Shown here: positions 13,520 to 30,922 of the stretch, in pieces
How the letters are laid out: the number at the start of each line of letters is the position of its first letter
Position numbering within the stretch: position 1 is the first letter of the stretch
Source of the DNA: Sulfurovum sp.
Lineage (GTDB): Bacteria; Campylobacterota; Campylobacteria; Campylobacterales; Sulfurovaceae
Length of the DNA: 64,000 nt
Direction: 5' to 3'
NCBI GenBank assembly: GCA_027019175.1
Contig: JALUXB010000009.1
Location: forward strand, 34,311 to 98,310
Translations under genes and position numbers: made by a program
Notes under the pieces: generated by a model
Told to the model about the DNA's origin: nothing
The model's database searches: none
Seen by the model: the letters and a program-made list of their open reading frames with translations, nothing else

Positions 13520-14758
13520 ATGTGGGACTCCTTTATGTTAAATTTGTTATACAAAGAACGTTACTCATTTCAGACCATTGGTATTGAACGAATGAAAGCG
13601 CACTATCTTTTTACCGAAAAAGATGCCAGAATACTGTACAGTCTGCAACCTATTGCACACAAAGCACTGCCTTCTATGATAGATGCATTCTACAATTTCA
13701 TTTTCAATTTTGAACATGCCAAAGTCTTTCTAAATTCGGAAGAAATTATCAGAAAGCATCGCAAAGGTATTGAACAGTGGTACATGAACCTCTTTTGCGG
13801 ACACTATGATACCGACTATTTCGAAGGACTTTCCACCATCAGTGAAACCCATGTAAAAATCGGTCTGCCTTCCCATTATGTCAATGCAGCATTCAGCTTT
13901 GTCCGCCAGTTTCTTGAAAATATGCTGATCAGGGCGGGTCATACCGACAAACTCTCCTCTTTGCACAAGATCATCGATATCAATCTTGATCTCCTGAGCC
14001 TGACTTACAAACAGGAGTCACTACAGAAACTGATTAAAAACGTAGCAGTTTTAAAGGATACCATAAAATATGGAAATATTGTTCCTTATGTCCAGCCAAT
14101 TTACAGCAATAAAACGGGAAAGATTTCACACTATGAGTGTCTCATGAGAATCCCACACAGAGAAAATTACACGGTTTGTTCCATCGTACATATGTTACAA
14201 CTCGCTAAACAGATACATCTCTACCATGACTTGATGCAACAGATGATCCAAAAGAGCTTTAATGCTTTTACACAGTTACCGCATGCATTCACTCTTAATC
14301 TCAGTTATGAAGATATTGCCAACACCGATTCGAGAAATTTTCTTGAGAAGATGCTTATGGCGCTCCCCAATCCCTCCCGTGTAACATTTGAAATTCTTGA
14401 AACCGACATGATTGCCGACTACAATATCGTTTCGGATTTTATCAAAGAGATTAAAACATATGGATCCCAAATTGCCATTGATGATTTTGGTACAGGCTAC
14501 TCCAATATGGAAAATCTTTTAAAACTGAAACCTGATTATGTCAAAATAGACGGTTCGCTTATTCGGGATATTCACCACTCGGAAAAATCACTGAAACTGG
14601 TAAAGAACATTATCAATATCAGCCGGGATATCGGTGCCAAAACAATTGCCGAACATGTTCACAATGAAGCAGTCTACACCATTCTCCATACACTCGACAT
14701 TGACTACCTGCAAGGCTTCTATCTTTGCAAGCCGTTTCCTCTCTCAGAGCTTACATAG
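13520..14758 (+). CDS. Globin-coupled sensor fused to EAL phosphodiesterase
   Basis: N-terminal protoglobin-like (FYNFIF...ISETHVKIGLPSHYVNAA); C-terminal QPIY, ECLMRI, FEILE, IAIDDFGTGYSN, VKIDGS, IAEHV, QGF. Confidence 0.85.
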   Translation: MWDSFMLNLLYKERYSFQTIGIERMKAHYLFTEKDARILYSLQPIAHKALPSMIDAFYNFIFNFEHAKVFLNSEEIIRKHRKGIEQWYMNLFCGHYDTDYFEGLSTISETHVKIGLPSHYVNAAFSFVRQFLENMLIRAGHTDKLSSLHKIIDINLDLLSLTYKQESLQKLIKNVAVLKDTIKYGNIVPYVQPIYSNKTGKISHYECLMRIPHRENYTVCSIVHMLQLAKQIHLYHDLMQQMIQKSFNAFTQLPHAFTLNLSYEDIANTDSRNFLEKMLMALPNPSRVTFEILETDMIADYNIVSDFIKEIKTYGSQIAIDDFGTGYSNMENLLKLKPDYVKIDGSLIRDIHHSEKSLKLVKNIINISRDIGAKTIAEHVHNEAVYTILHTLDIDYLQGFYLCKPFPLSELT

Positions 14759-14768
14759 AAAACATTTT

Positions 14769-16400
14769 CTAAAAAAAGAGCAACTGAATGATGTTCAGAA
14801 TGAACATTGTAATAAATCCTACTTTATAGACCATCATTTCATTACGCTCAATAAATGATGTGTGGCGGTCAAAATAGGGCTGTACTTTGTCAGGATTGTC
14901 AATTTCATAGAGCATTTCCGAATAGTTGTGGTAGCGCTTGTCCGGATCGGTCTCGATGGCACGCAGAATCACACTCTCCAGCCAGTGCGGTATTTTCGGG
15001 TTGAGCTTACTCGGATGCTTCGCATCTTTCTCGAAACCCGGAGTCTGGAACGGTTCTATTTCTCCAAACGGGAACTTCTGTGTCAATGCCTCGTAGAGTG
15101 TCACCCCTATGGCATAAATCTCTGTCTGTTCGGTAATCGGTGCCTGCTTGAAACGCTCCGGCGCAAGATAGGAAGGTGTACCCGCCCGCGTGACTGTAGA
15201 GTAGGCTTCGGTAATACTGCCAAAATCAACCATTTTGAAAACAATCTTCTCTTTTCGTTTGGTCACAATAATATTTTCAGGTTTGATATCGCCGTGTACC
15301 AGGTTGAACTTAATGAGGTACTGCGACATCTTCAGTAAAAAGTGCGCCAGTTCCACCCCAAGGTCAACACTCAGCGGCTTTTTGGAAATATATTCTTTAA
15401 GAGAAACTCCCTCGATGTATCGCATAATATAATAACGGTGTGTCCTCTTTTTCGGAATAACCGCTTTGGGGAAGAATCCGGCTTTCAAGCGGTTGGCCAT
15501 CCAGACTTCTTTCACAAAAAGATCCAGCATCACCTCATCGTCAATCGCTTCATGGGGTGCAAATTTAATCACATACTGCACCCCTTTCTTCTCACACAGC
15601 CAGGTTCTGTTGTTCTGTATCAACGGTTTGATAAGACGATAACCGTCTATCTCTTCACCTTTTTTGTACTGTTCCTGAATAATCAGGTCTGTCTGCTTCA
15701 GCTTCAGCCTCGGGTCAAGCTCTTTGATTTCAATGACCACGGCAGTGGTATCGTCAGGCAGGTCATCGTTGTGCTTTTTGCTTGCTTTTTTAACCAGAAA
15801 CGAAGCACCCACTTTGATGCCCTCTGCAAGTTCTTCGGGGGAGAGTTCATTGTAAAGCCCATCACTACAGAGCAGAATGCGGTCTCCTGCCTGCAAATTG
15901 TTCTCAAAGTAGTAAGGCTCTACACTCTCTTCAAGCCCGATGGCTGCTGTCAGCACATTCTCCATCCCTTCCTCATCCATCGCATGATCGGAGGAGAGCT
16001 GAGCAAACTGTCCGTTACGGGAGAGGTAGATACGGCTGTCACCCACATTGGCACCGTAAAGCCTGTTTCCTTCAATGACCACCAGTGTAAGGGTTGTCAC
16101 AAGCTCCTGCCGTTCATACTGCTCCATCGATTCAAGATAGAGCACACGGTTGATATTGTCAATAAAATGGCGAATGGACTTTTCCATACTCCAGCTTCGC
16201 GGACGGTTCTTCAGCGACTGCACCAGAAACTGCGCGGTACGCTTTGCCGCTTCGGCACCATGCATTGATGAGCCTACTCCATCGCAGACCACCGCAACAG
16301 TAATGTTCTCCATTACTTTGACTTCGAAATAATCATCGCCTTTAAGCTGCGTACCTTTGGCCAGCGTAAATCCGCTGGTTTCAATATTTTCTTTAGACAT
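14769..16400 (-). CDS. Bifunctional PP2C phosphatase / Hanks Ser-Thr kinase with C-terminal TM
   Basis: VCDGVG, NVGDSRIY, LLCSDGL, DDTT (PP2C); IKF, HGDIKPEN, DFG, GTPSYLAPE (kinase); hydrophobic C-terminus. Confidence 0.92.
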   Translation of the reverse strand: MSKENIETSGFTLAKGTQLKGDDYFEVKVMENITVAVVCDGVGSSMHGAEAAKRTAQFLVQSLKNRPRSWSMEKSIRHFIDNINRVLYLESMEQYERQELVTTLTLVVIEGNRLYGANVGDSRIYLSRNGQFAQLSSDHAMDEEGMENVLTAAIGLEESVEPYYFENNLQAGDRILLCSDGLYNELSPEELAEGIKVGASFLVKKASKKHNDDLPDDTTAVVIEIKELDPRLKLKQTDLIIQEQYKKGEEIDGYRLIKPLIQNNRTWLCEKKGVQYVIKFAPHEAIDDEVMLDLFVKEVWMANRLKAGFFPKAVIPKKRTHRYYIMRYIEGVSLKEYISKKPLSVDLGVELAHFLLKMSQYLIKFNLVHGDIKPENIIVTKRKEKIVFKMVDFGSITEAYSTVTRAGTPSYLAPERFKQAPITEQTEIYAIGVTLYEALTQKFPFGEIEPFQTPGFEKDAKHPSKLNPKIPHWLESVILRAIETDPDKRYHNYSEMLYEIDNPDKVQPYFDRHTSFIERNEMMVYKVGFITMFILNIIQLLFF

Positions 16401-16915: not shown

Positions 16916-18196
16916 TTAAATAATTCCCCCTGCATTGGCACCCCATGTGGTTCTCCAGCGTGTTTTAACAAGCGAAATGGCACCGATGGCAATGAGTACA
17001 AGCCCCGCAAAAATAAAGAAACCGACACTGTAGCTGTCAAACGTCCCTTTCGCCCAGCCAAGTGTTTTGACAAGGAACGTACCGCCGATCCCGCCGGCTG
17101 CACCGATGAGTCCGGTCATAATACCGATATCTTTTCCGAAGCGCTGCGGTACGAGCTGGAAAACTGCACCGTTTGCCATTCCAAGATTGGCCATGATCAA
17201 AAAGAGTACACCAATGGCAACCCAGAACGGAAGCTGTACCGCACCGCTGAGCGCCACCAGTGCAGCAACAACACCAAAAAAGATATAAAGTGCTTTGACC
17301 CCACCCATTTTGTCGGCAATACCACCGCCTACAGGACGCAACACTGCACCGGCAAAGATGGTAAGGGCTCCAAAGTAACCGGCAATGACCTTGACATTCG
17401 GTTCATGGAAAACACTCAATCCAAAAGCACTCATATCTGCCTGATACGTATTCATCAGGTAGACTTTCATATAGTTTGCAAATCCTACAAATCCGCCGAA
17501 GCTGACAGCATAAAAGAGCATAAACCACCAGCTGTCACGGTCTTTGAGCAGTTTCCAGTAATCACCCAGCTTTTTGGGACGCGGCTTGTAAACTGATTCA
17601 GGTGCATCTTTTGCCATTAAAATATAAATGATCAGCACGATGAACGAGAGCAATCCTCCAACAAGGAAAACTGCTTCCCATCCCCAAATTTCTGCGATTT
17701 TAGGTGCAAAAAGGAAGTCAACGACCACACCGATATTCCCTGCTCCGGCAATACCGAGTACGATCCCCTGAAGCTTGGGCGGATACCACTGTCCTGCCTG
17801 CGGCAGTGCCACCGCAAAGGATGCACCGGCAAAACCAAGCCCAAGTGCAACAACCAACAATTCATTATAGGTAATGCTCTCTCCTCTTGAATACGCATAG
17901 AAGAGTGATGCAATCACGATAACCTGTGCGATGATGGCAGTTTTCTTCGGTCCAATCTTGTCGACACCGAAACCAAGTACAATACGCAGCAGTGCACCTG
18001 CCAAAATCGGGATGGAAAGCAGTGTTGCAATCTGCCCTGCACTCAATGCTGTACCGTGATGAGCCAGTGATTCGTTGATCTCGGTTGCCAAAGGCCCGAG
18101 CATCGTCCATACCATAAAACTGAAATCAAAGTAGAGAAATGCCGCAAAAAGTGTCTTTGCATCTCCCTGCCCTTTAAGCGCCTTGAAGTTCGCCAT
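16916..18196 (-). CDS. narK: Nitrate/nitrite MFS transporter (NarK/NasA family)
   Basis: FAGASFAVALPQAGQWYP, GIAGAGNIG, LRPVGGGIADKMGG, GMANGAVFQLVPQRF nitrate-signature motifs. Confidence 0.93.
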   Translation of the reverse strand: MANFKALKGQGDAKTLFAAFLYFDFSFMVWTMLGPLATEINESLAHHGTALSAGQIATLLSIPILAGALLRIVLGFGVDKIGPKKTAIIAQVIVIASLFYAYSRGESITYNELLVVALGLGFAGASFAVALPQAGQWYPPKLQGIVLGIAGAGNIGVVVDFLFAPKIAEIWGWEAVFLVGGLLSFIVLIIYILMAKDAPESVYKPRPKKLGDYWKLLKDRDSWWFMLFYAVSFGGFVGFANYMKVYLMNTYQADMSAFGLSVFHEPNVKVIAGYFGALTIFAGAVLRPVGGGIADKMGGVKALYIFFGVVAALVALSGAVQLPFWVAIGVLFLIMANLGMANGAVFQLVPQRFGKDIGIMTGLIGAAGGIGGTFLVKTLGWAKGTFDSYSVGFFIFAGLVLIAIGAISLVKTRWRTTWGANAGGII

Positions 18197-18433: not shown

Positions 18434-20353
18434 ATGGAAGCATTAGCAAAAGCCAAAGAGGCAAGAAGCAAAAAGCTCAATAAAGTAGAAACGACCAAAG
18501 CGCTTAAAGACCCGATGGAGGTCTACAAGCGTTTGGAAGAGATCGCAGCAGCAGGTTATGAGGGATTAAGCAAAGAGGATTCCGCCTACTTTCTAAAGTG
18601 TTTCGGACTCTTCGATAAGGGCGAGGACTTTATGTTACGTGTGCGTATCCCCGGCGGGCAGCTGACCAATGCACAAGCGATACGCATCGGTGAAGTGGCA
18701 AAGGAGTACGGCAATGACTACATCGATATTACCACCCGTATGCAGGTGGAACTGCGCTATTTGCAGATTGCTGACATTGCAAAGGTACTCAAAGCGCTTA
18801 AAGAGGCAGGCATCTCCACCTTCCAGACCGGGGTGGACAACCCGCGAAACATCGTCACCGACCCGCTTGACGGTATCGCTTATGACAACATCATCGAGTC
18901 CATGCCCATCTTGACGCAGCTTCAGGAGATCTTCCTCGAAAATCCCGAGTGGATCTCTGCCCTGCCTCGAAAATTCAATACCGGTATTTTGGGAAGCCTG
19001 AGCAACTCCTGTAACATCTTCGGGCATGACTGTAACTTCGTACTCGCCAACAAAGACGGTAACTTTGGCTTCAACGTCTACCTTGGTGCCCGTGTCGGTG
19101 TACAGGCACGGGATGCTGACCTCTTCGTTACTCCCGAAGAGGTACCCGTATTTTTCAAAGCCCTGCTAAACGTTTTCAAAACCTACGGCTACCGCGACAA
19201 CCGCAACAAGAACCGTCTGCACTTTCTGCTGCAGGATGTGGGTATTCCTGCATTCATCGAAGCGGTCAAAGAGGAGGCCGGACTCTCCTTTGCCTCAGGC
19301 GGCATGACACTGGTGCAGTCGCAAAACATCGCGCTGGGTGCCAACCGTGTGCTGCTTAAAAACGGCACCTATGCCTACAAGGTCATCGTCCCCTCCGGTA
19401 TCTTCAGCGGAACGGATATGATCGCAGCAGCCAAAGCGGCACAAAGCTACGGCAGCGGCGACATCCGTCTCAGCTACGACCAGAACCTTTTCATTATCAA
19501 CATTGACAAAGAGAAGCTTGATGCCTTTGAGAACGATCCGCTCATTGGCAAATATGCCCAGTACAACAACCTCTATTTTCAGGATATGATTGCCTGTGCG
19601 GGAACACAGACCTGCAGCTATGGCGTCATCCCCAACAAACCCGATGCCATCGAGATGGCACACTTCCTCAACTCCGAAGTGCCCATTGCCAATGCCAACG
19701 TACGTATGAACTGGTCAGCCTGCCCCAAAGGGTGCGGCGTACACGGCATTGCCGACATCGGTTTTGAGGGATGCAAGGCAAAAGATGCCGAGGGCAACCG
19801 TGTAGATGGTGTACACCTCTTTATGGGCGGCAAGATCACCCGCCAAGCCAAAGAGGCGCACATCCTGCACAAAGCACTGCCGATCGACGAAGCCAAACAC
19901 CATGTCAAGTATCTTCTGAAAACATATGCGGTATACAAAGAGCGCGGAGAGACCTTCGAGAGTTTTGAGACACGCTTTTTCAGCAAGAACTACAGCTACC
20001 AGGCGATCAGCTTCTTTACCAAGATCAACTACATCCTCCGCGACAAACTGGGACTGGATGTAATGTTTGAGCTTGACAAAGAGCCCAAAAGTGGACGCCG
20101 TGAAGAGTACGAACTCTTTACCTTCGGACTCAAACTCTTCAAACTCCTCACGGGAGAGAAGCGTTTTGAAGCTGTCACAGGACTTGCTCCCACACTCGCA
20201 CGCCCAAGAAAGATCAAACGGGATGAAGTAAGCAAGCTCAACCCGAAAGTCCCGCCGAAACTCTCTGAAGTCATCTACAATATGACCCATGAGAACAAGA
20301 GTGAGCGTGCGCAGGTCTTCTCGGAGTTGCTTATGGCACTTAAAGAGGTGTAA
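18434..20353 (+). CDS. nirA: Ferredoxin-nitrite reductase with C-terminal extension
   Basis: MLRVRIPGG, ITTRMQVELR, ALPRKFN, siroheme/FeS ligands ACAGTQTC and SACPKGCG; nitrate-cluster context. Confidence 0.9.
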   Translation: MEALAKAKEARSKKLNKVETTKALKDPMEVYKRLEEIAAAGYEGLSKEDSAYFLKCFGLFDKGEDFMLRVRIPGGQLTNAQAIRIGEVAKEYGNDYIDITTRMQVELRYLQIADIAKVLKALKEAGISTFQTGVDNPRNIVTDPLDGIAYDNIIESMPILTQLQEIFLENPEWISALPRKFNTGILGSLSNSCNIFGHDCNFVLANKDGNFGFNVYLGARVGVQARDADLFVTPEEVPVFFKALLNVFKTYGYRDNRNKNRLHFLLQDVGIPAFIEAVKEEAGLSFASGGMTLVQSQNIALGANRVLLKNGTYAYKVIVPSGIFSGTDMIAAAKAAQSYGSGDIRLSYDQNLFIINIDKEKLDAFENDPLIGKYAQYNNLYFQDMIACAGTQTCSYGVIPNKPDAIEMAHFLNSEVPIANANVRMNWSACPKGCGVHGIADIGFEGCKAKDAEGNRVDGVHLFMGGKITRQAKEAHILHKALPIDEAKHHVKYLLKTYAVYKERGETFESFETRFFSKNYSYQAISFFTKINYILRDKLGLDVMFELDKEPKSGRREEYELFTFGLKLFKLLTGEKRFEAVTGLAPTLARPRKIKRDEVSKLNPKVPPKLSEVIYNMTHENKSERAQVFSELLMALKEV

Positions 20354-20394: not shown

Positions 20395-20409
20395 AACTCA
20401 AAAGAATAA

Positions 20410-20552
20410 AGCTTTTGTGTTACTTTTGCACTTTTTGTGCAGATGCGGTTGCGCCCATATGTGCGAAGCACGGCGCAAAGAGCATCATCCGCACAATTGC
20501 AAAAGTAACGCTTTTGGCGCTACCTTTTCTAAAAAGGTAGCAAAAACGCCAA
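20410..20552. repeat. Nested-hairpin intergenic element
   Basis: GTTACTTTTGCA/TGCAAAAGTAAC outer stem, inner TTGTGC/GCACAA, GCGCC/GGCGC, GTGC-GAA-GCAC; second hairpin GCTACCTTTT/AAAAGGTAGC. Confidence 0.75.
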
Positions 20553-20614
20553 ACTTCAAAAAGAGTTTATGTTACAAGACTATAATTGAATAATAGCAAA
20601 AAAGGAAACAACAG

Positions 20615-22222
20615 ATGGCAGTGGAACCATTGAGCAAACACACACCGTTAGAGAGCTTCATCAACCACAAGAATGACACCGGTATGCAGTGCGGCAACTA
20701 CACCATCGATATTCCCGAGCTCAAGCCCGGTGAGCAGTACCGTTTTCACTTCGATGCCACCGCCTGTGTGGGCTGTCACTGCTGTGAAGTGGCCTGTAAC
20801 GAACAAAATGCCAATCCCGACGAGATCAAATGGCGCCGTGTGGGTGAGATGGAGACCGGCTCTTTCCCTGACACACTCCAGCTTTTCAACTCGATGAGCT
20901 GTAACCACTGCATCGACCCCGAGTGTCTGCGCGGCTGCCCTACCGAGAGCTACATCAAACTTGACAACGGGATTGTCTGGCATGATGACCCAAGCTGCAT
21001 CGGATGCCAGTACTGTACCTGGAACTGTCCCTATGAGGTGCCCGTCTTCAACCCTGACCGCGGTATCGTCACTAAATGCCATATGTGTGTGGACAAGCTC
21101 GAGGCAGGACAGACACCTGCGTGTGTCCAGGCGTGTCCCGGCGGAGCCATCGAAATAGAAGCTGTCAATGTCGAGCAGTGGCTTTCAGAAGATATGGCAA
21201 AAGAGGGAGTCGCTCCCCATCTGCCTGACATCAATATCACCAAACCCACCACACGTTACACCCTGCCTGATCTTCCTGAAGGTCAGGAGATACGTCCGGC
21301 TGATGAACACATCCTCAAGCCTGCCCATGCCGAATTGCCGCTTGTCTTTATGACGGTGCTGACACAGGTTTCGGTGGGGGCTTTTCTGGCACTGTTTTTG
21401 GGGCAGCTGCTCTACTCGCTTGGCTTCAACCTGCCAAAACCAAACCTTATTATGGCGATATTGGCATTCCTGCCTGCAGCCATAGGCCTGCCGCTTTCGG
21501 CAATGCACCTTGGACGCCCCGGTAAAGCGATGAGTGCGATGAAGAACTGGAAAACTTCATGGCTCAGCCGTGAAGCGATCGCTTTGGGTGCCTATACCGG
21601 TCTGGCAACCGTTGTAGCCGGACTCTACTTCCTTGATGTCGGCGGTGTTCTTCTGCTCCTGCTTGAAGTCCTGACCCTTGGCATCGGACTCTACGGTATC
21701 TACGCGCAGTCGATGATTTACCGCATCAAAGCACGTCCAAGCTGGAACCGCAAGAGTACCACCAAACGCTTCTTCGGTTCAGGCTATGTCGGCTTCCTGC
21801 TTATCGCCACCGCTCTGCTCGCAAGCAACGGCGCGCAGGGTGCAACTGTACTGCTTGCCGTCACGCTGCTTGCAGGCATGGGGCAGGCACTGGTGATCTT
21901 TGAGGAGGTGATGTTCTACCGCCACCTCGACAAAGAAGATCCGCTCTACTATCAGTACAACCGAAGCCGCATCCTGCTGCAGGAGCACTTTGGAAACATC
22001 AAGAAGTTCCGCATATGGTCACTGGCAGCCTTTGGGCTGGCACTGCCGCTTTTTGCTATTCTCTTTACCGCCAGTGGTTTAACAGGTTTAGCAATTGCCA
22101 CACTTGTCATCGCCACACTCGGTGCCTTGGCATCCGAACTTGCCGGACGCTACCTTTTTTACCGTACTGTGGTACCATTGGGACTTGCGGGGAACTTCTT
22201 TGCGGGAAACCAGCGACATTGA
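20615..22222 (+). CDS. Fused 4Fe-4S (DmsB-like) plus DmsC/NrfD-like membrane anchor subunit
   Basis: CVGCHCCEVAC, CNHCIDPECLRGCP, CIGCQYCTWNCP, KCHMC..CVQACP then ELPLVFMTVLTQ, SAMHLGRP, SWLSRE and multiple TM helices. Confidence 0.88.
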   Translation: MAVEPLSKHTPLESFINHKNDTGMQCGNYTIDIPELKPGEQYRFHFDATACVGCHCCEVACNEQNANPDEIKWRRVGEMETGSFPDTLQLFNSMSCNHCIDPECLRGCPTESYIKLDNGIVWHDDPSCIGCQYCTWNCPYEVPVFNPDRGIVTKCHMCVDKLEAGQTPACVQACPGGAIEIEAVNVEQWLSEDMAKEGVAPHLPDINITKPTTRYTLPDLPEGQEIRPADEHILKPAHAELPLVFMTVLTQVSVGAFLALFLGQLLYSLGFNLPKPNLIMAILAFLPAAIGLPLSAMHLGRPGKAMSAMKNWKTSWLSREAIALGAYTGLATVVAGLYFLDVGGVLLLLLEVLTLGIGLYGIYAQSMIYRIKARPSWNRKSTTKRFFGSGYVGFLLIATALLASNGAQGATVLLAVTLLAGMGQALVIFEEVMFYRHLDKEDPLYYQYNRSRILLQEHFGNIKKFRIWSLAAFGLALPLFAILFTASGLTGLAIATLVIATLGALASELAGRYLFYRTVVPLGLAGNFFAGNQRH

Positions 22223-22255
22223 CAAAGAAGATATACTGTACTATAATATGTACAG
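22219..22255 (+). promoter_or_regulatory. yefM-yoeB sigma70 promoter and operator
   Basis: TTGACA 22219-22224, 17-bp spacer, TATAAT 22242-22247; inverted CTGTAC/GTACAG flank the -10. Confidence 0.85.
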
Positions 22256-22279
22256 GATTTAGAACATAAAGGAGTTGTA

Positions 22280-22534
22280 ATGCAGGTTGTCAACTTTACA
22301 GAAGCAAGAAACAATTTAAAAGCACTCTGTGATACCGTCTATGAGAACAGTGAAGAGGTCATCATCAATCGCAAAAACGGAGAAAATGTAGTCATTCTTT
22401 CATTGGAGAGCTATAATGCACTACAGGAGACTGCTTACCTGCTGGCGTCTGCCAAAAACAGAGAACGTCTGCTTAGTTCACTTGAGCATGCCCGTACAGG
22501 CAAAGTAACACAAAGAGAATTAGCAGAGTCATGA
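22280..22534 (+). CDS. yefM: YefM/Phd family antitoxin
   Basis: NFTEARNNLK, VIINRKNG, YNALQETAYLLASAKNRERL. Confidence 0.93.
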   Translation: MQVVNFTEARNNLKALCDTVYENSEEVIINRKNGENVVILSLESYNALQETAYLLASAKNRERLLSSLEHARTGKVTQRELAES

Positions 22535-22791
22535 ATCTTCTTTTCACAGAGGAAGCATGGGAAGACTACTGCTATTGGCAGCAGTACGATAAAAAGTTAC
22601 TCAAAAAGGTAAACAGCCTTTTAAAAGAGATACAAAGAAACCCGTTTGAGGGTACCGGAAAACCTGAAGCACTAAAACATGAACTTCAGGGATGTTGGTC
22701 ACGGCGCATTAATCAGGAACACCGCCTGGTCTATGAGGTCTTGGACACACAGATAAATATCTTGGCTTGCCGGTATCATTACGGTAATTAG
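22531..22791 (+). CDS. yoeB: YoeB/Txe family toxin
   Basis: AWEDYCYWQ, GTGKPEALKHELQGCWSRRINQEHRLVY, CRYHY; ATGA overlap with antitoxin. Confidence 0.95.
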   Translation: MNLLFTEEAWEDYCYWQQYDKKLLKKVNSLLKEIQRNPFEGTGKPEALKHELQGCWSRRINQEHRLVYEVLDTQINILACRYHYGN

Positions 22792-22793
22792 TA

Positions 22794-25127
22794 ATGGAGA
22801 ATAATATGAGTCTCATAGACAAAGCAAAAAACTTTCTCGGCTTCGACATCAAAGAGGACAAATACGCCCTCGTCGACGACCCAATATTTGGTAAAGTTGC
22901 CAAAGCCAAAGCCCCTGACAAGTGGGTACGAAGCACCTGCGGCTACTGCGGTGTAGGCTGCGGCATGTACATCGGTGTCAAAGACGGTAAAGCGGTCTAC
23001 TCCAAAGGCGATCCGCTCCATCCGGTCAATATGGGCACACTCTGCCCAAAAGGCTTGAGTGAGCACAGAATGGTACGTGCCGACAACCGTATACCTACGC
23101 CGATGCTCAAAAAAAACGGCACGCTTCAGCCTGTTTCATGGGATGAAGCATTCAGCCATACTGCAGAAGAATTCAAACGTATTCAACAACAGTACGGCAA
23201 AGGTGCGGTTGCTGTGGTCTCTACTGGTCAACTACTAACAGAAGAGTTCTATGCGCTGGGCAAATTTGTGCAGCTTGGGCTTGAAACAAACAACTATGAC
23301 GGCAATACCACACTCTGTATGGCAAGTGCCGTCATGGGATACAAACAAACCTTTGGCTCAGATGGTCCTACCGGATGTTATGAGGACTTTGAAAAAGCAG
23401 ATGTCATTATGCTTATCGGTGCAAACATTGCCGACAATCACCCTATTTTGAAGCTGCATATTGCCAAAAACAAAAAAACCACAGGGAAAAAACCAACCAT
23501 TATTGTTGTTGACCCCAGAAAATCCAAAACCTCACAGATGGCAGACATTTTTGTGCCACTTAAACCACGCTCCGATCTGGCGCTCATCAATGGTCTGTGC
23601 TACATCATCATGGAACAGGGATGGGAGGATGAAAACTTCATCAAAGAGCGCACCAACGGCTACAGAGAATTCAAAAAACACATCATGGAGAACTACCCGC
23701 CACAAGAGGTTGCTCACATCACCGGCATCGATGTCAAGGAGCTTTACAACCTTGCACGCATTTACGCCGGTGCGGATGCGGTAATGAGTGCCTGGACCAT
23801 GGGTGTCAACCAAAGCTCCATCGGAACCGATACGGTCTCTGCCATCTGTAACCTTGCACTCATCACCGGCAACCTTGGCAAAGAGGGAGCTTCACCTATG
23901 TCCATCACCGGACAGTGCAACGCCATGGGTACACGGGAGTTTGGCTTTACCTCATCCATCCCCGGATACCGCAACTACGCCAGTGAAAGTGACCGAAGAG
24001 AGTTTGCCGAGATCATCAGTGTATCCGAAGAGCTCATCCCCACTGCAAGAGGCTACGCCTACCCGCAGATTATCGAGGCGATCAACCGCGGCGAGATCAA
24101 AGCACTCTGGGTTGTTGCCACCAATCCACTGGTAAGCTACCCTGATCAAAACGGACTTAGAGAAGCACTCAAAAAACTTGACATGCTTGTGGTACAGGAT
24201 GCCTTCATGTCCGATACGGCACAAATAGCCGATGTGGTCTTCGCCGCAGCGACATGGAGCGAAAAAGAGGGTTGCTACACCAACAGTGAGCGCCGCTGCA
24301 ACTATGCCAAAAAAGCCATAGAACCTCTTGAACAGAGCAAGGCAGACTTCTACATTGTCAAAGAGTTCTCCAAATATTTCGGCGACAAACACGACCTGCT
24401 CTTCAAAAATCTCAATACCCCACGAGATACTTTCGAGGAGATCAAACGCGTCAGCAAAGGCAGACTCTGCGACTACAGCGGTATGAGCTACGAACTCATT
24501 GAGGAGCTTGGCGGCATCCAGTGGCCATGTAATGACAAAGCCCCCAAAGGCACCAAACGCCTCTACTCCGACGATATGCCATGTCCTACCCCTGATGGCA
24601 AAGCACAGCTGCTGCCGGTTGACTGGGTACCGCTGAGTGAAATGCAGTGCAAAGAACTGCCTGTCATGCTCAATACCGGACGAACGGTAGAACAGTTCCA
24701 TACCCGTACCAAAACCGGTACCATCGGCATCCTCGATGCACTGGCTCCCGAAGCATGGATAGACATTAATCCCAAAGATGCTGCCAAACTCAAAGTCAAA
24801 AGCGGAGACCGCATCGCCATTTCCGGCAGCCGCGGGCGTGTAGAGGATGTCATCGTCAAAGTGAGCGAAACCGTACGGGAAGGCAACATCTTCGTACCGT
24901 TCCACTTTAACGAACAGCTTATCAATGCCGTTACTATCCCCGAGTTCGACCCCAAATCCTTCGAGCCAAACTACAAACAGTGTGCTGTACAGCTGCACTC
25001 CGAAGCGGTACCCGAAGGCATCGTCTATGAAGAGCTGGAAATCAGCGGCTACCTGGAGAATGTAAAAGTATACAAAGAGGAAGAGACGGCACAAAACGAT
25101 ATGGCTGCTGCAGAGGCGCAAAAATAG
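22794..25127 (+). CDS. Molybdopterin nitrate reductase catalytic subunit (assimilatory NasA/NarB-like, cytoplasmic)
   Basis: STCGYCGVGCG..GTLCPKG, NTTLCMASAV, SITGQCNAMG, LNTGRTVEQFHTRTKTG, EPNYKQCAV; no Tat signal. Confidence 0.9.
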   Translation: MENNMSLIDKAKNFLGFDIKEDKYALVDDPIFGKVAKAKAPDKWVRSTCGYCGVGCGMYIGVKDGKAVYSKGDPLHPVNMGTLCPKGLSEHRMVRADNRIPTPMLKKNGTLQPVSWDEAFSHTAEEFKRIQQQYGKGAVAVVSTGQLLTEEFYALGKFVQLGLETNNYDGNTTLCMASAVMGYKQTFGSDGPTGCYEDFEKADVIMLIGANIADNHPILKLHIAKNKKTTGKKPTIIVVDPRKSKTSQMADIFVPLKPRSDLALINGLCYIIMEQGWEDENFIKERTNGYREFKKHIMENYPPQEVAHITGIDVKELYNLARIYAGADAVMSAWTMGVNQSSIGTDTVSAICNLALITGNLGKEGASPMSITGQCNAMGTREFGFTSSIPGYRNYASESDRREFAEIISVSEELIPTARGYAYPQIIEAINRGEIKALWVVATNPLVSYPDQNGLREALKKLDMLVVQDAFMSDTAQIADVVFAAATWSEKEGCYTNSERRCNYAKKAIEPLEQSKADFYIVKEFSKYFGDKHDLLFKNLNTPRDTFEEIKRVSKGRLCDYSGMSYELIEELGGIQWPCNDKAPKGTKRLYSDDMPCPTPDGKAQLLPVDWVPLSEMQCKELPVMLNTGRTVEQFHTRTKTGTIGILDALAPEAWIDINPKDAAKLKVKSGDRIAISGSRGRVEDVIVKVSETVREGNIFVPFHFNEQLINAVTIPEFDPKSFEPNYKQCAVQLHSEAVPEGIVYEELEISGYLENVKVYKEEETAQNDMAAAEAQK

Positions 25128-27728: not shown

Positions 27729-28463
27729 ATGGAAACATTTTATACAGATTCACCGCAGGTTCAGCAAATTATTCAAGGATTGAACCTAACCAGAACACTC
27801 TTTGTCTCTTCTATCGTCATAGGGGAACCCCATATTGGAAAGAAAACACTTGTGACACATCTCTTCCCCGATATTCCAGTTGTCTCAGGAGAAAATCAGG
27901 ATGAAGTCGAAGCCATACTCGAACACTCTGACGAGCTGATCATTACCAATTTTGAAAAACTTTCCAATAAAGAGAACCTCGTTTTCGACAACAAACGCAT
28001 CATTGCCACAGCAGACTATATCGGTAACCAAAAGACCATCGACAGCTTATTTGCTTTTATTTACATGATGCCTACATACAAGGAACGTCCTGAAGATCTC
28101 AAGCATCTTAAAACCCGCTTCCTTGAAGAGGCGGCAGCGACCTTGATGCTTGATGCTTCATCCTATACGCTTTCACAGCTTCCTACTGACCTGACACAGA
28201 ACAGCAAAAGCCTCAAACGTACCATATACCATTACCTTATGAGTCGTAATATGAGCAAAAAAGAGATTGAAGAGACACTGTATACCTATTTTATTGAGCA
28301 TCTTGAAGGCAATAACGGATACAAAGAGTATGTGGGAATGTATGAACGTCCTCTCATTAAGGCAGGGCTTGAGAAATACGGCTCTCAACTAAAACTTTCC
28401 GAAATTCTCGGTATCAACCGCAATACACTAAGGAAGAAGATCCATGAGCACGGCATCGATTGA
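27729..28463 (+). CDS. NtrC-like Fis-HTH regulator, degenerate AAA+, no receiver domain
   Basis: Degenerate Walker A GEPHIGKK, RIIATAD, MPTYKERPEDL (cf. LPPLRERREDI), HTH ERPLIKAGL..LGINRNTLRKKI; no GAFTGA. Confidence 0.8.
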   Translation: METFYTDSPQVQQIIQGLNLTRTLFVSSIVIGEPHIGKKTLVTHLFPDIPVVSGENQDEVEAILEHSDELIITNFEKLSNKENLVFDNKRIIATADYIGNQKTIDSLFAFIYMMPTYKERPEDLKHLKTRFLEEAAATLMLDASSYTLSQLPTDLTQNSKSLKRTIYHYLMSRNMSKKEIEETLYTYFIEHLEGNNGYKEYVGMYERPLIKAGLEKYGSQLKLSEILGINRNTLRKKIHEHGID

Positions 28464-29145
28464 TTTCCGCCCCTTTGTAGAGTGGGACAACAACCCCTTC
28501 ATTCTCTTCGACCCAAAAGGAAAGATCCTCTACCTCAACAACAGTGCGGAGATCCTGCTTGGATATGTCTCCAAAAAGGAGCTTTTCGACCTTGCACTTG
28601 CCTACGCACCGCAAAACTTCGGCTATAAAACGACAAGTATCTCTCTGCGTTACGAAGCTTTCAACTTCTACTCTATCACTGTAGGGTACGAAAATGAAGA
28701 GCAGCTTGCCATACGTTTCTACAATGCGCCAAGGCTCAGAAATCATACACCGGTGGAGAAAGAGAAACTCACTCTTACTGACATTAACCTGCTGCTTGAA
28801 GCCAATATTGCCCTCTTTAAAACAAAAAACAGCAATCCGCTGCAACTGTTGACCGATCCGGATATGCCACAGCTTAGAATCGACCAGAACCGCTTTTCAA
28901 AACTGCTGCGTAAAGTACTCGAATCATTCCGCGCATCCGACTCCATACGCATTGAACTCAAACTCCTTGTCGGGGAGCATGTCATTATCGATGAGCAAAA
29001 AATCTCCATTGCCCAGCTTTCCACTACGGCAAACGGACGCTATGTCGATAATGACAAGGAGATAAAAATACTTTCGGAAGAGTGCAATATCCGCAGTAAC
29101 CTCCAGGAATCCTCCATCAAACTCGAAATTCCGCTGATTGCATAG
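28444..29145 (+). CDS. PAS plus degenerate NtrB-like HATPase domain, lacking His-phosphotransfer domain
   Basis: PFILFDPKGKILYLNNSAEILLG (PAS); TDPDMPQLRIDQNRFSKLL and ANG remnants; no H-box. Confidence 0.6.
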   Translation: MSTASIDFRPFVEWDNNPFILFDPKGKILYLNNSAEILLGYVSKKELFDLALAYAPQNFGYKTTSISLRYEAFNFYSITVGYENEEQLAIRFYNAPRLRNHTPVEKEKLTLTDINLLLEANIALFKTKNSNPLQLLTDPDMPQLRIDQNRFSKLLRKVLESFRASDSIRIELKLLVGEHVIIDEQKISIAQLSTTANGRYVDNDKEIKILSEECNIRSNLQESSIKLEIPLIA

Positions 29146-29147
29146 AT

Positions 29148-29201
29148 TGATTAAAAAATAATCAGCTCCTTCCTCCATTTTCTTCTCCCGCGTGGTAAGA
29201 T
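29148..29201 (+). promoter_or_regulatory. amtB promoter with 17-bp operator
   Basis: TGATTAAAAAATAATCA 29148-29164 (exact reverse complement of the narK/nirA sites); TGG-TAAGAT extended -10 at 29193-29201, centre 40 bp upstream. Confidence 0.72.
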
Positions 29202-29236
29202 AACCTTTGTAAACCAAACACTACAAAGGACACAGC

Positions 29237-30544
29237 ATGAAGTTAAAACTTTTCGCTTTACTGGCAGCATTTATGCCAATTGCCGCTTTTTCGGCAGACA
29301 AACTCGATTCGGGTGATACGGCGTGGATGATGATCTCAACCGCACTTGTTCTCCTCATGACACCGGCAGGACTGGCACTTTTCTATGCAGGAATGTCAAG
29401 AAGCAAGAATGCCCTTAATACCTATGCCATGGTTATGGGTGCCTTCGTTCTGGCATTTGTTGTATGGATCGTTGCAGGATACTCTCTTGCATTTGGGACA
29501 GCAGGAAGTGCTTTCGTTCAGAAATTTATCGGTGGCTTCGGTAATATCCTTCTGAGTGAAACCAAATGGACAGACCTTAGCGGTACCTACCCTGCGTATG
29601 TGTTCGTTGCTTTCCAGGGAACATTCGCAGCTATTACCGTAGCAATTGCATCAGGTTCAGTCATCGGACGAATGAAGTTCTCTACCTGGATGGTTATCGT
29701 TGCACTCTGGGGTCTTGTTGTCTATGCACCAATTACTCACATGGTATGGGGTGGCGACGGAGCACTGCTCTTTGATGCAGGTGCGCTTGACTTTGCAGGT
29801 GGTACTGTCGTACATATGAACGGTGGTCTTGCAGGTCTGGTTCTTGCAATTCTAGTAGGGAAAAGAGTCGGCTACCCTAAAACAGCTATGAAACCGTTCA
29901 GTATCATTCTTACTGCAGCAGGTGCTGCCCTGCTCTGGTTCGGTTGGTACGGGTTCAACGGCGGTTCTGCATTCGGTGCGAACAAAATTGCCGGTCTTGC
30001 AGTTTTAACAACGACTGTTGCAACTGCTGCGGCAGGTGTTACCTGGCTGCTGCTTGAGTGGGCTATCTTTAAAAAGCCTACCCTTCTTGGTATTGCGTCT
30101 GGTATCATTGCCGGTCTGGTTGCCATCACACCTGCTGCAGGATTCGTTTCTGTAGGAGGATCGTTCATCGTTGGTATCGGTGGTACTCTCATCGCATTCT
30201 TCGGTGTCGTTACACTCAAGAAAAAACTCGGTTACGACGACTCACTTGATGCTTTCGGTATCCACTTCCTTGCAGGTCTCTGGGGTGCTCTTGTTACCGG
30301 TTTGCTCGCACTCAACGACAAAGATCTTCTCTGGGACGGACCGCTTAAAGAGAGTGGAGACAGAATAGGGCAGTTCATGGTTCAGGTTCAGTCTGTTGTC
30401 GTTGTCGGCCTCTGGACACTGATCGGTACTGTCATTGTTTACTATATTGCAAGTGCCCTGACAGGTGGTGCAAGAGTTGCAACAGAAGATGAAGAAATCG
30501 GACTTGACGAGTCTGTTCACGGAGAGAGAGGAATGAACCTTTAA
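29237..30544 (+). CDS. amtB: Ammonium transporter
   Basis: GDTAWMMIST, GLALFYAGM, LDFAGGTVVHMNGG, LLWFGWYGFNGGS, DDSLDAFGIH. Confidence 0.97.
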   Translation: MKLKLFALLAAFMPIAAFSADKLDSGDTAWMMISTALVLLMTPAGLALFYAGMSRSKNALNTYAMVMGAFVLAFVVWIVAGYSLAFGTAGSAFVQKFIGGFGNILLSETKWTDLSGTYPAYVFVAFQGTFAAITVAIASGSVIGRMKFSTWMVIVALWGLVVYAPITHMVWGGDGALLFDAGALDFAGGTVVHMNGGLAGLVLAILVGKRVGYPKTAMKPFSIILTAAGAALLWFGWYGFNGGSAFGANKIAGLAVLTTTVATAAAGVTWLLLEWAIFKKPTLLGIASGIIAGLVAITPAAGFVSVGGSFIVGIGGTLIAFFGVVTLKKKLGYDDSLDAFGIHFLAGLWGALVTGLLALNDKDLLWDGPLKESGDRIGQFMVQVQSVVVVGLWTLIGTVIVYYIASALTGGARVATEDEEIGLDESVHGERGMNL

Positions 30545-30577
30545 GGTTCTTCCCTGACAATACAGTAAAAAGGATAG

Positions 30578-30922
<345 letters not shown>

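What the first reader, a model, noticed from the sequence alone, without database searches (positions are those of the whole stretch)
20615..25127. Assimilatory nitrate reductase apparently wired to the quinone pool by a fused FeS-membrane subunit
Seen in sequence: a single ORF fuses four Cys-cluster motifs to a DmsC/NrfD-like polytopic domain. It lies upstream of a Mo subunit with no Tat signal and NasA/NarB-like motifs, and no NADH diaphorase gene is present in the cluster. Established: characterised assimilatory nitrate reductases are soluble and use ferredoxin/flavodoxin or NADH, while DmsBC-type modules couple to menaquinol. Inference: a cytoplasm-facing, membrane-bound assimilatory reductase using menaquinol from sulfur/H2 oxidation.
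Basis: partly seen in the sequence, partly recalled or inferred. Interest (0 to 1): 0.62.

Follow-up and report, generated by a model that had tools for sequence, protein, structure and literature searches.

The report
Membrane-anchored, probably quinol-fed assimilatory nitrate reductase
In this Sulfurovum nitrate-assimilation cluster the nitrate reductase is paired with a single protein that fuses a four-cluster iron-sulfur wire to an inward-facing, quinol-binding membrane anchor. The pairing is conserved across many bacterial phyla and suggests a way of powering nitrate assimilation from the membrane quinol pool that I could not find described.

Summary
ORF 20615-22222 fuses a DmsB/PsrB-type four-[4Fe-4S] domain (16 invariant Cys) to an 8-helix DmsC/NrfD-type anchor. 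ORF 22794-25127 is a Tat-less Mo-bisPGD enzyme with Nap/Nas-type active-site motifs. A yefM-yoeB cassette sits between them, which the finding did not mention. The cluster also holds narK, nirA, amtB, glnB and NtrBC-like genes, but no diaphorase, ferredoxin or flavodoxin gene.

The pair is not a chance neighbour. In 301 Campylobacterota genomes the fused gene occurs in 29 and its Mo partner in 28, all 28 among those 29. In about 150 loci from other phyla (Planctomycetota, Myxococcota, Verrucomicrobiota, Acidobacteriota, Actinomycetota and others) the same two genes are adjacent, mostly beside nirA or nirB.

The charge bias (about 19 K+R on the FeS side, 1.6 on the other) and the missing signal peptides put the FeS domain in the cytoplasm. 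That orientation is inverted relative to E. coli DmsC. The menaquinol-site residues of DmsC (S62, H65, S82, E87) are conserved.

Best reading (about 0.62): a cytoplasm-facing menaquinol:nitrate oxidoreductase for assimilation. Quinol use and the assimilatory role are inferred, not shown. I found no published description, and reviews state that Nas enzymes lack such subunits.

The parts
14769..16400 (-). PP2C phosphatase / Ser-Thr kinase fusion that travels with narK in nitrate-assimilation clusters
   Evidence: Pfam PP2C_2 and Pkinase. It is syntenic with narK in most Campylobacterota loci. The same 'bifunctional kinase/phosphatase' is annotated beside nirBD-nasA in a Comamonadaceae plasmid.
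16916..18196 (-). NarK-family nitrate/nitrite MFS transporter
   Evidence: Pfam MFS_1. The best NCBIfam hit is TIGR00886, NarK family, E 3.7e-72.
18434..20353 (+). NirA-type ferredoxin-nitrite reductase (siroheme/4Fe-4S) with a C-terminal extension of about 130 aa
   Evidence: Pfam NIR_SIR and NIR_SIR_ferr. NCBIfam ferredoxin--nitrite reductase, E 5.5e-108, covers residues 9-496.
20413..20546 (.). Small repeated element with an imperfect 28-nt inverted repeat, inserted in the nirA-to-fused-gene spacer. In many relatives this spacer is only 3-5 nt.
   Evidence: Inverted repeat 20419-20446 / 20482-20509. Two further copies of 85-87% identity lie elsewhere in the genome.
20615..22222 (+). Fused four-cluster FeS protein plus DmsC/NrfD-type 8-TM anchor (P0001), proposed as the electron-entry and membrane subunit
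20735..21169 (+). FeS domain (residues 41-185): 16 Cys for four [4Fe-4S] clusters. It has no signal peptide and is predicted to be cytoplasmic.
   Evidence: TIGR02951 DmsB hit over residues 41-184, E 1.4e-42. PDB sequence hits to FdnH, PsrB and ArrB. Foldseek PsrB 2vpw_B, TM 0.74. All 16 Cys are invariant.
21329..22162 (+). DmsC-like membrane domain (residues 239-516) with 8 TM helices. The quinol-site residues are S295, H298 (nt 21506-21508), S315 and E320 (nt 21572-21574). The termini and the K/R-rich loops lie on the FeS side.
   Evidence: Pfam DmsC. Alignment with E. coli DmsC over all 8 helices. Residue mapping. K+R counts. Foldseek PsrC and ActC.
22219..22247 (+). Perfect sigma-70 consensus promoter (TTGACA-17-TATAAT) that overlaps the stop codon of the fused gene and reads into yefM-yoeB and the Mo gene
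22280..22791 (+). yefM-yoeB type II toxin-antitoxin cassette wedged between the two reductase genes. It is strain-variable.
   Evidence: Pfam and NCBIfam. It sits at the same junction in L020 and L023 and downstream of the fused gene in L027. It is absent from the 97%-identical locus L008 and from most other loci.
22794..25127 (+). Tat-less Nas/Nap-type Mo-bisPGD catalytic subunit (P0002). It has an FS0 motif (C49/C52/C56/C84), the Mo ligand Cys175 (nt 23316-23318) and Arg381. A family-specific N-terminal extension of about 45 aa precedes FS0. The start codon is probably 22806.
27729..30922 (+). Nitrogen-control and ammonium-uptake genes next to the cluster: an NtrC-like HTH protein, an overlapping ORF, amtB and glnB (P-II)
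   Evidence: Pfam HTH_8/HTH_50 and Ammonium_transp. Pfam P-II.

Best explanation
The fused protein and the Mo subunit form one enzyme on the cytoplasmic face of the membrane. [quoted passage not shown] That domain sits in the membrane upside-down relative to E. coli DmsC. Electrons then pass through the four [4Fe-4S] clusters of the fused FeS domain to the FS0 cluster and the Mo-bisPGD centre of the Nas-type subunit, which reduces imported nitrate to nitrite. NirA reduces the nitrite to ammonium for assimilation. The Mo subunit probably docks on the FeS domain through its family-specific N-terminal extension. Shown here: the domain architecture, conservation of cofactor and quinol-site residues, absence of export signals, the charge-bias topology, and gene pairing and context across phyla. 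Inferred: complex formation, quinol as donor, the assimilatory role, and whether any energy is conserved.
For: (1) Architecture. P0001 is DmsB plus DmsC by Pfam, NCBIfam and PDB sequence hits. The AlphaFold2 model (pLDDT 84.8, pTM 0.84) matches PsrB (TM 0.74) and the NrfD-type subunits PsrC (TM 0.65), ActC and ActF (TM 0.40-0.46).
(2) Quinol site. E. coli DmsC S62/H65/S82/E87 align to S295/H298/S315/E320. H, S315 and E are invariant in 30/30 representatives from many phyla. Mutation of H65 blocked quinol oxidation in DmsC and E87 was shown to be important for quinol binding (PMC8076601).
(3) Orientation. P0001 has no RR or Sec signal. K+R counts are 24 against 1 in this protein. The family mean is 19.4 on the FeS side against 1.6 on the other, compared with 5 against 4 for E. 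coli DmsC. No RR-like motif was found in 161/167 Mo partners.
(4) Partnership. The Mo gene lies directly downstream in most of 80 Campylobacterota loci and in 97/97 well-flanked loci from other phyla. In 301 phylum genomes the fused gene occurs in 29 and the partner in 28, all within the 29. The single exception lies at a contig end (Fisher p about 1e-38).
(5) Substrate. Cys175-Met and TGQxNAxGxRE match NapA and not formate dehydrogenases. The partners form their own clades, apart from canonical Nas and Nap.
(6) Assimilation context. narK, nirA, amtB, glnB and an NtrC-like gene lie here. NirA or NirB lies within 6-7 kb in 108/127 well-flanked loci. This genome has a separate Tat-NapA and no other Nas-like gene.
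(7) No alternative donor gene is in the cluster. Menaquinone biosynthesis genes are present.
Against: There is no biochemical, genetic or expression evidence. Only single chains could be modelled, so complex formation is inferred from synteny alone. In Arcobacteraceae loci a second, short NarB-like gene (663 aa, CMSSAV motif) sits in the same cluster. The fused-subunit enzyme is therefore not necessarily the only assimilatory nitrate reductase where it occurs. NirA still needs a low-potential donor, so the cell must make reduced ferredoxin anyway. Many loci in other phyla carry NirB, which in Paracoccus-type systems can feed NasC, so another route is conceivable there. Monophyly of all partner Mo subunits has only weak support (SH-aLRT 75.8). 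In this strain a TA cassette and a repeat element interrupt the ancestral operon, so its expression here is uncertain.
Confidence: 0.62

Rival explanations
1. The complex and its orientation are the same, but its main job is dissimilatory. It would be a cytoplasmic quinol:nitrate oxidoreductase used as an electron sink or for respiration, functionally like Nar. It might conserve energy through the NrfD-type ion pathway, and assimilation would be a by-product.
For: The roughly 0.5 V drop from menaquinol to nitrate is large for a purely assimilatory step. Charged residues of the second four-helix bundle that are proposed to line an ion pathway in DmsC (R230, E267, R271) are conserved as R466, E508 and R512 (PMC8076601). 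A NarK-family transporter is adjacent. Campylobacterota lack NarGHI (my own knowledge).
Against: The module sits with assimilatory nitrite reductases (NirA or NirB) in 108/127 well-flanked loci, and here also with amtB, glnB and NtrBC-like genes. This genome already has a periplasmic Nap for respiration. The residues of the first half-channel are not conserved.
Confidence: 0.13
2. The membrane domain is only a tether or scaffold. Electrons would enter the FeS domain from a soluble donor (ferredoxin or flavodoxin), as in NarB, and the quinol site would be vestigial or regulatory.
For: All characterised Nas enzymes use soluble donors (PMC7331816). NirA in the same cluster needs ferredoxin anyway. 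Sequence alone does not prove quinol turnover.
Against: S315, H298 and E320 are invariant across phyla that are only about 32-35% identical overall, and S295 is conserved in 22/30 representatives. Such conservation implies selection on the quinol site. The fusion and its 8-TM domain have been kept in more than 700 clusters at 50% identity. No ferredoxin or flavodoxin gene accompanies the module.
Confidence: 0.13
3. The Mo subunit acts on a different substrate. It could, for example, be a formate dehydrogenase feeding the quinone pool, or a reductase for another oxyanion. The link to nitrate genes would then be indirect.
For: The best-scoring NCBIfam model is Fdh-alpha (608.6 bits, just under its 666 cut-off). 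The NasC and NasA equivalog models score well below their cut-offs. The top full-length PDB hits are formate dehydrogenases.
Against: The active-site region matches NapA best (E 3.4e-53) and shares its LCMASAV and TGQxNAxGxR(E/D) motifs. Formate dehydrogenases have Sec/Cys-His and QGACD at the same positions. Synteny with nirA/nirB and narK holds across phyla.
Confidence: 0.05

Closest known systems
Soluble assimilatory nitrate reductases (cyanobacterial NarB, Klebsiella/Azotobacter NasA, B. subtilis/Paracoccus NasC, haloarchaeal NasA)
   Same: The catalytic subunit is a cytoplasmic Mo-bisPGD enzyme with an N-terminal FS0 cluster and a Cys Mo ligand. It carries Nap/Nas active-site motifs and is encoded with a nitrate transporter and an assimilatory nitrite reductase.
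   Different: The known enzymes are soluble and take electrons from ferredoxin, flavodoxin or an NAD(P)H diaphorase. Here the only partner is a fused FeS/quinol-anchor membrane protein. The Mo subunit scores below the NasC and NasA equivalog cut-offs (538.8/1100 and 491.9/1000). It has a family-specific N-terminal extension of about 45 aa. It falls outside the clade that holds the canonical Nas types and NapA I could sample.
E. coli DmsABC and Thermus PsrABC (complex iron-sulfur molybdoenzymes with a heme-free DmsC/NrfD anchor)
   Same: The modules are the same: a Mo-bisPGD subunit, a four-cluster protein and an 8-TM anchor. The same quinol-site residues (H65/E87 of DmsC) are present. The predicted fold matches PsrB and PsrC.
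   Different: DmsAB and PsrAB are exported by Tat and face the periplasm. Here there is no signal and the charge bias is inverted. The B and C subunits are fused into one chain. The catalytic subunit belongs to the Nas/Nap/Fdh branch and not to the DmsA/PsrA branch.
SoeABC sulfite:quinone oxidoreductase (Allochromatium vinosum, Aquifex aeolicus)
   Same: SoeABC is the one described CISM-type enzyme proposed to face the cytoplasm with an inverted NrfD-type anchor. SoeC also carries His65 and Glu87 (PMC8076601).
   Different: SoeABC oxidises sulfite and reduces quinone. The enzyme here would oxidise quinol and reduce nitrate. SoeB and SoeC are separate proteins. The catalytic subunit belongs to a different lineage. 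I did not compare the sequences directly.
NarGHI respiratory nitrate reductase
   Same: It is a membrane-bound quinol:nitrate oxidoreductase with its active site in the cytoplasm and an FeS subunit between the anchor and the catalytic subunit.
   Different: NarG uses an Asp ligand and belongs to another clade. NarI is a di-heme cytochrome b that oxidises quinol at the periplasmic side, forming a redox loop. The narH model matches only weakly here (50.6 bits against a cut-off of 524). The function is respiratory.
Periplasmic nitrate reductase NapA (D. desulfuricans, PDB 2jio/2nap)
   Same: It is the best structural-database match for the active-site half, with an identical LCMASAV motif and the conserved Arg.
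   Different: NapA has a Tat leader, is periplasmic and uses NapB, NapC or NapGH. This genome has its own Tat-NapA elsewhere.

Membership tests
Complex iron-sulfur molybdoenzyme (CISM: DmsABC/PsrABC type) | Mo-bisPGD catalytic subunit with an N-terminal FS0 Cys motif | tested here: met
   Pfam Molybdop_Fe4S4, Molybdopterin and Molydop_binding. C49-x2-C52-x3-C56 plus C84.
Complex iron-sulfur molybdoenzyme (CISM: DmsABC/PsrABC type) | Four-cluster protein with 16 Cys in four groups | tested here: met
   Four Cys groups. All 16 Cys are invariant in 33 sequences. DmsB model E 1.4e-42, but the score of 145.5 is below the equivalog cut-off of 214.
Complex iron-sulfur molybdoenzyme (CISM: DmsABC/PsrABC type) | Heme-free 8-TM NrfD/DmsC anchor with a quinol site next to the FeS subunit | tested here: met
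   PF04976 scores 74.8 bits against a cut-off of 22.3. Eight helices in the model. S62/H65/S82/E87 equivalents are conserved. Foldseek matches PsrC and ActC.
Complex iron-sulfur molybdoenzyme (CISM: DmsABC/PsrABC type) | Tat export of the A/B subunits to the periplasmic face (typical, though NarGHI and SoeABC are exceptions) | tested here: not met
   Neither protein has an RR motif. 161/167 partners lack an RR-like motif. The positive-inside bias places the FeS side in the cytoplasm.
Complex iron-sulfur molybdoenzyme (CISM: DmsABC/PsrABC type) | Separate B and C polypeptides | tested here: not met
   There is a single 535-aa ORF. Full-length fused relatives are found across phyla.
[quoted passage not shown] | Cys Mo ligand and Nap/Nas-type substrate-pocket motifs, not the Sec/Cys-His of Fdh | tested here: met
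   LCMASAV (C175) and TGQCNAMGTRE align with Dd NapA. Fdh sequences differ at both sites.
[quoted passage not shown] | Cytoplasmic location, encoded with a nitrate transporter and an assimilatory nitrite reductase | tested here: met
   No signal peptide. narK and nirA are adjacent. NirA or NirB is nearby in 108/127 well-flanked loci.
[quoted passage not shown] | Score above the curated equivalog cut-offs (NF047855 NasC, NF041323 NasA) | tested here: not met
   538.8 against 1100, and 491.9 against 1000.
[quoted passage not shown] | Nitrate reduction required for growth on nitrate; soluble donor (ferredoxin, flavodoxin or NAD(P)H) | not testable with these tools
   This needs genetics and enzymology. 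No donor gene is in the cluster.
DmsC/YnfH anchor family (PF04976) | N- and C-termini and the quinol site on the periplasmic side | tested here: not met
   K+R counts are 24 against 1 (family mean 19.4 against 1.6), with the excess on the side of the termini and the H298/E320 loop. E. coli DmsC has 5 against 4. Orientation is predicted, not measured.
SoeABC-like cytoplasm-facing CISM | Inverted NrfD-type anchor with His65/Glu87 and cytoplasmic A/B subunits | tested here: met
   The feature is described for SoeC in PMC8076601. The same residues and the same predicted orientation are found here.
SoeABC-like cytoplasm-facing CISM | Sequence orthology to SoeA, SoeB and SoeC | not tested
   No Soe sequence was available in the collections I could reach.
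NarGHI | NarG-type Asp ligand, NarH, and the di-heme NarI | tested here: not met
   The narH model scores 50.6 bits against a cut-off of 524. The Mo ligand is Cys. The anchor is DmsC-type without heme ligand motifs.

The most novel reading that the evidence does not exclude
The module is a third, quinol-dependent and membrane-bound class of assimilatory nitrate reductase, widespread in at least eight phyla. It may also be energy-coupled: the conserved charged residues of the second four-helix bundle (R466, E508, R512) could let the inverted NrfD-type domain move protons while the roughly 0.5 V drop from menaquinol to nitrate is spent. Nitrate assimilation would then contribute to the proton-motive force, which would blur the textbook line between assimilatory and respiratory nitrate reduction.
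Probability: 0.15. Interest if true: 0.85.

Novelty: new variant of a known kind. Interest (0 to 1): 0.66.

Why it matters
Textbooks and recent reviews divide prokaryotic nitrate reductases into three kinds: soluble assimilatory Nas (ferredoxin, flavodoxin or NADH), periplasmic Nap, and membrane-bound respiratory Nar. One phylogenetic review states that no member of the Nas/Nap/Fdh clade is associated with the canonical four-cluster or membrane-anchor subunits (PMC7331816).

A Nas-type enzyme wired to the quinol pool would be a fourth arrangement. It would explain how chemolithoautotrophs such as Sulfurovum, and many Planctomycetota, Verrucomicrobiota, Myxococcota, Acidobacteriota and Actinomycetota, reduce nitrate for growth. 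They would not need to spend scarce low-potential reductant on the first step.

It would also change how nasA and narB genes in metagenomes are interpreted for electron budgets. It would add a second example, after SoeABC, of an inverted NrfD-type anchor. Finally, it would give annotators a name for thousands of proteins now labelled inconsistently as DMSO reductase anchor, formate dehydrogenase FeS subunit or molybdopterin oxidoreductase.

Tried and rejected
Formate dehydrogenase reading. The Fdh-alpha model and Fdh structures score highest over the full length. The active-site motifs are Nap/Nas-type and the context is nitrate assimilation, so I rejected it.

Periplasmic orientation. I rejected it because no signal peptide is present and the charge bias is inverted.

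Chance adjacency. I rejected it on genome-level co-occurrence and on synteny in about 230 loci.

NapGH-like or NarH/NarI-like partner. The family models do not support either.

Prior description. Ten literature searches and eight papers read found no description of a fused FeS-anchor partner for Nas. Sulfurovum papers simply call the gene NarB or NasA. An earlier AI note says the pairing 'was mentioned once in a genome paper'. I could not find that paper, so prior mention cannot be excluded. Subscription-only literature was not searchable.

Canonical references. NarB, NasC and NasA sequences from model organisms could not be fetched because the control genomes give no loci. The tree therefore uses plasmid-borne Nas types, a haloarchaeal NasA and a Selenomonas NapA. 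The basal branching is unresolved, and the union of the two partner clades has only 75.8 SH-aLRT support.

Complex modelling. Only single chains can be folded here, so the Mo/FeS interface was not modelled.

Full report
WHAT IS THERE. The window comes from a Sulfurovum-type genome (2.2 Mb, 87 contigs). The finding's coordinates match two ORFs exactly.

ORF 20615-22222 (535 aa, P0001) matches Pfam Fer4_11 at residues 90-181 and DmsC (PF04976) at residues 239-516 (74.8 bits, cut-off 22.3). Its best NCBIfam hit is DmsB (E 1.4e-42), which is below the equivalog cut-off. It carries 16 Cys in the four groups typical of four-cluster proteins. All 16 are invariant in a 33-sequence alignment spanning several phyla.

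ORF 22794-25127 (777 aa, P0002) has the three domains of a Mo-bisPGD enzyme and no twin-arginine leader. Its active-site half matches D. desulfuricans NapA best (E 3.4e-53). It shares the LCMASAV (Cys175) and TGQxNAxGxR(E/D) motifs with NapA. Formate dehydrogenases show Sec/Cys-His and QGACD at the same positions.

The surrounding genes are a PP2C/kinase fusion, a NarK-family transporter and a NirA-type nitrite reductase upstream. Downstream lie thiI, an NtrC-like/NtrB-like pair, amtB and glnB. No diaphorase, ferredoxin or flavodoxin gene is present in that stretch.

The finding left out three details. A yefM-yoeB cassette (22280-22791) with a perfect sigma-70 promoter (22219-22247) separates the two genes. 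A 133-nt repeated element sits in the nirA-to-fused-gene spacer. The Mo gene probably starts at 22806.

IS THE PAIRING REAL? In 80 Campylobacterota loci the fused gene is followed by the Mo gene, often with a gap of 0-15 nt. The loci come from Sulfurovum, Nitratifractor, Hydrogenimonas, Sulfurospirillum and Arcobacteraceae. In most of them nirA, narK and the PP2C-kinase gene lie in the same cluster.

A search of 1.8 billion cluster representatives found 709 representatives at E<1e-30. The best 150 were listed, most of them matched over nearly the full length of the fusion, at 33-46% identity. Loci fetched with these distant relatives come from Planctomycetota, Myxococcota (including Sorangium), Verrucomicrobiota, Acidobacteriota, Actinomycetota, Poribacteria, Omnitrophota and others. 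In all 97 well-flanked loci of these two sets a Nas-like Mo gene (37-41% identical to P0002) lies directly downstream. An assimilatory nitrite reductase (NirA or NirB) lies within 6-7 kb in 83 of the 97. The figure for well-flanked Campylobacterota loci is 25 of 30.

At the genome level I sampled 301 high-quality Campylobacterota genomes. The fused gene is present in 29 and the partner in 28, and all 28 are among the 29. The one exception has the fused gene at a contig end (Fisher p about 1e-38). In three genomes the two genes are apart or on different contigs, yet both are kept.

In a maximum-likelihood tree the Campylobacterota partners form one clade and the multi-phylum partners another, each with SH-aLRT 100. 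The two clades sit together against all other sequences with weak support (75.8). NapA, the diflavin NasN type, a proteobacterial NasA, a Bacteroidota type and a short NarB-like gene of Arcobacteraceae form a separate clade (95).

The partner Mo subunits share an extension of about 45-55 aa before the FS0 motif, with a conserved FG(K/L)...PD signature. The short NarB-like proteins lack it. 161 of 167 partners have no RR-like motif.

WHICH WAY DOES IT FACE? P0001 has no signal peptide, and its first 30 residues are predicted to be disordered. I placed eight helices by hydropathy, and the AlphaFold2 model has the same eight. The loops on the same side as the FeS domain hold 5, 7, 7 and 3 K+R. 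The opposite loops hold 1, 0, 0 and 0.

Across 30 representatives the means are 19.4 against 1.6. E. coli DmsC, mapped on the same alignment, has 5 against 4. By the positive-inside rule the FeS domain, both termini of the membrane domain and the loop after TM2 are cytoplasmic. In E. coli DmsC and Thermus PsrC the corresponding side is periplasmic (PMC8076601). The whole B-C module is therefore inverted in the membrane. The same inversion has been proposed for SoeABC (same review).

DOES IT BIND QUINOL? E. coli DmsC aligns with residues 233-535 over all eight helices. The four residues listed for the DmsC quinol site (S62, H65, S82, E87) correspond to S295, H298, S315 and E320. H, S315 and E are invariant in 30 of 30 representatives. 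The NrfD review summarises the mutational work showing that replacing H65 blocks quinol oxidation and that E87 is important for quinol binding in DmsC.

The AlphaFold2 model (pLDDT 84.8, pTM 0.84) resembles PsrB, PsrC and ActC. The genome carries futalosine-pathway menaquinone genes. From my own knowledge, the phyla that carry the module are mostly menaquinone users. That fits a DmsC-type menaquinol site, but I did not test it.

MECHANISM PROPOSED. Menaquinol is oxidised at the cytoplasm-proximal site. Electrons pass through four [4Fe-4S] clusters to FS0 and Mo-bisPGD, where nitrate imported by NarK is reduced. NirA then completes the reduction to ammonium.

Quinol oxidation and nitrate reduction would both occur on the cytoplasmic side. 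The simplest expectation is therefore an electroneutral enzyme that saves low-potential reductant for the first two electrons. Residues R466, E508 and R512 correspond to DmsC R230, E267 and R271, which are proposed to line an ion pathway. They are conserved, so coupling to ion movement cannot be excluded.

RIVALS. Four alternatives remain, and their odds are in the structured fields.
- A dissimilatory or electron-sink role for the same complex.
- A purely structural anchor, with a soluble donor feeding the FeS domain.
- A different substrate for the Mo subunit.
- Chance adjacency, which I consider excluded.

One fact tempers the main reading. Arcobacteraceae clusters carry an additional short NarB-like gene. 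In those organisms two nitrate reductases with different donors may coexist. In this genome P0002 is the only Nas-like gene. The other Mo enzymes are a Tat-NapA, an Fdh-like protein with Cys-His, and a 611-aa enzyme that I did not characterise.

WHAT IS KNOWN. A DMSO-reductase-family phylogeny paper states that no member of the Nas/AioA/Nap/cytoplasmic-Fdh clade is associated with the canonical four-cluster or membrane-anchor subunits (PMC7331816). The NrfD review lists fourteen kinds of complex with NrfD-like subunits, and none is a Nas. Papers on Sulfurovum and on Epsilonbacteraeota list the gene as NarB or NasA without a partner. A Methylacidiphilum genome paper calls its NasA cytoplasmic.

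NCBIfam release 20 has no model that either protein passes. Database names for the fused protein are inconsistent. Ten full-text searches found no description. Subscription literature was not covered.

Earlier AI notes from this scan report the same module in many other genomes and reach the same reading. One note says the module was mentioned once in a genome paper, which I could not trace. Those notes are not independent evidence. They gave me the SoeABC comparison, which I then checked against the review.

VERDICT. The module is best filed as a new variant of known kinds: a Nas-type catalytic subunit on a fused, inverted DmsBC/PsrBC-type module. It is widespread and apparently uncharacterised. 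My confidence in the full mechanism is about 0.62. The weakest links are quinol as the physiological donor and assimilation as the exclusive role.

Noticed in passing
window 22219-22791: A yefM-yoeB toxin-antitoxin cassette with a 12/12 consensus promoter overlaps the stop codon of the fused gene and ends 2 nt before the Mo ORF. The same cassette sits at this junction in L020 and L023 and downstream of the fused gene in L027. It is absent from the 97%-identical locus L008. It is therefore a recent, strain-variable insertion that may now drive or disturb expression of the Mo gene.
   Followed up: partly
window 20405-20580: The nirA-to-fused-gene spacer is 261 nt here but only 3-5 nt in many relatives. 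It holds an element of about 133 nt with a 28-nt imperfect inverted repeat. Two further copies (85-87% identical) lie on other contigs of the genome, which suggests a MITE- or REP-like element.
   Followed up: partly
L083:3278-5269 (also L037, L074, L080, L086): Arcobacteraceae and Poseidonibacter nitrate clusters carry a second, short (663 aa) NarB-like Mo enzyme in addition to the fused-subunit pair. It has a CMSSAV motif and no N-terminal extension. These organisms may therefore have two assimilatory nitrate reductases with different electron donors.
   Followed up: partly
window 18434-20353 (residues about 510-639): NirA carries a C-terminal extension of about 130 aa beyond the region matched by the ferredoxin-nitrite reductase model. 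It has a faint hit to a PASTA-kinase model (E 7e-4, residues 561-638).
   Followed up: no
window 14769-16400 and L252:1-945: The PP2C-phosphatase/Ser-Thr-kinase fusion next to narK recurs beside nitrate-assimilation genes in Campylobacterota and Verrucomicrobiota (47% identity). It is also annotated in a Comamonadaceae plasmid. This points to a conserved but little-studied regulator of nitrate uptake.
   Followed up: partly
window 13520-14758: A protoglobin-EAL domain protein, a putative gas-sensing c-di-GMP phosphodiesterase, lies just upstream of the nitrate cluster.
   Followed up: no
L103:7963-9909 and 10957-13035: A Verrucomicrobiae contig carries two nearly identical copies of the partner Mo gene about 1 kb apart. 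This is either a tandem duplication or an assembly artefact.
   Followed up: no
G015:C83 (102367-104619 and 153883-155445); G004 and G057: In a few Campylobacterota genomes the fused gene and its Mo partner are about 50 kb apart or on different contigs, yet both are retained. The functional link therefore does not depend on co-transcription.
   Followed up: no
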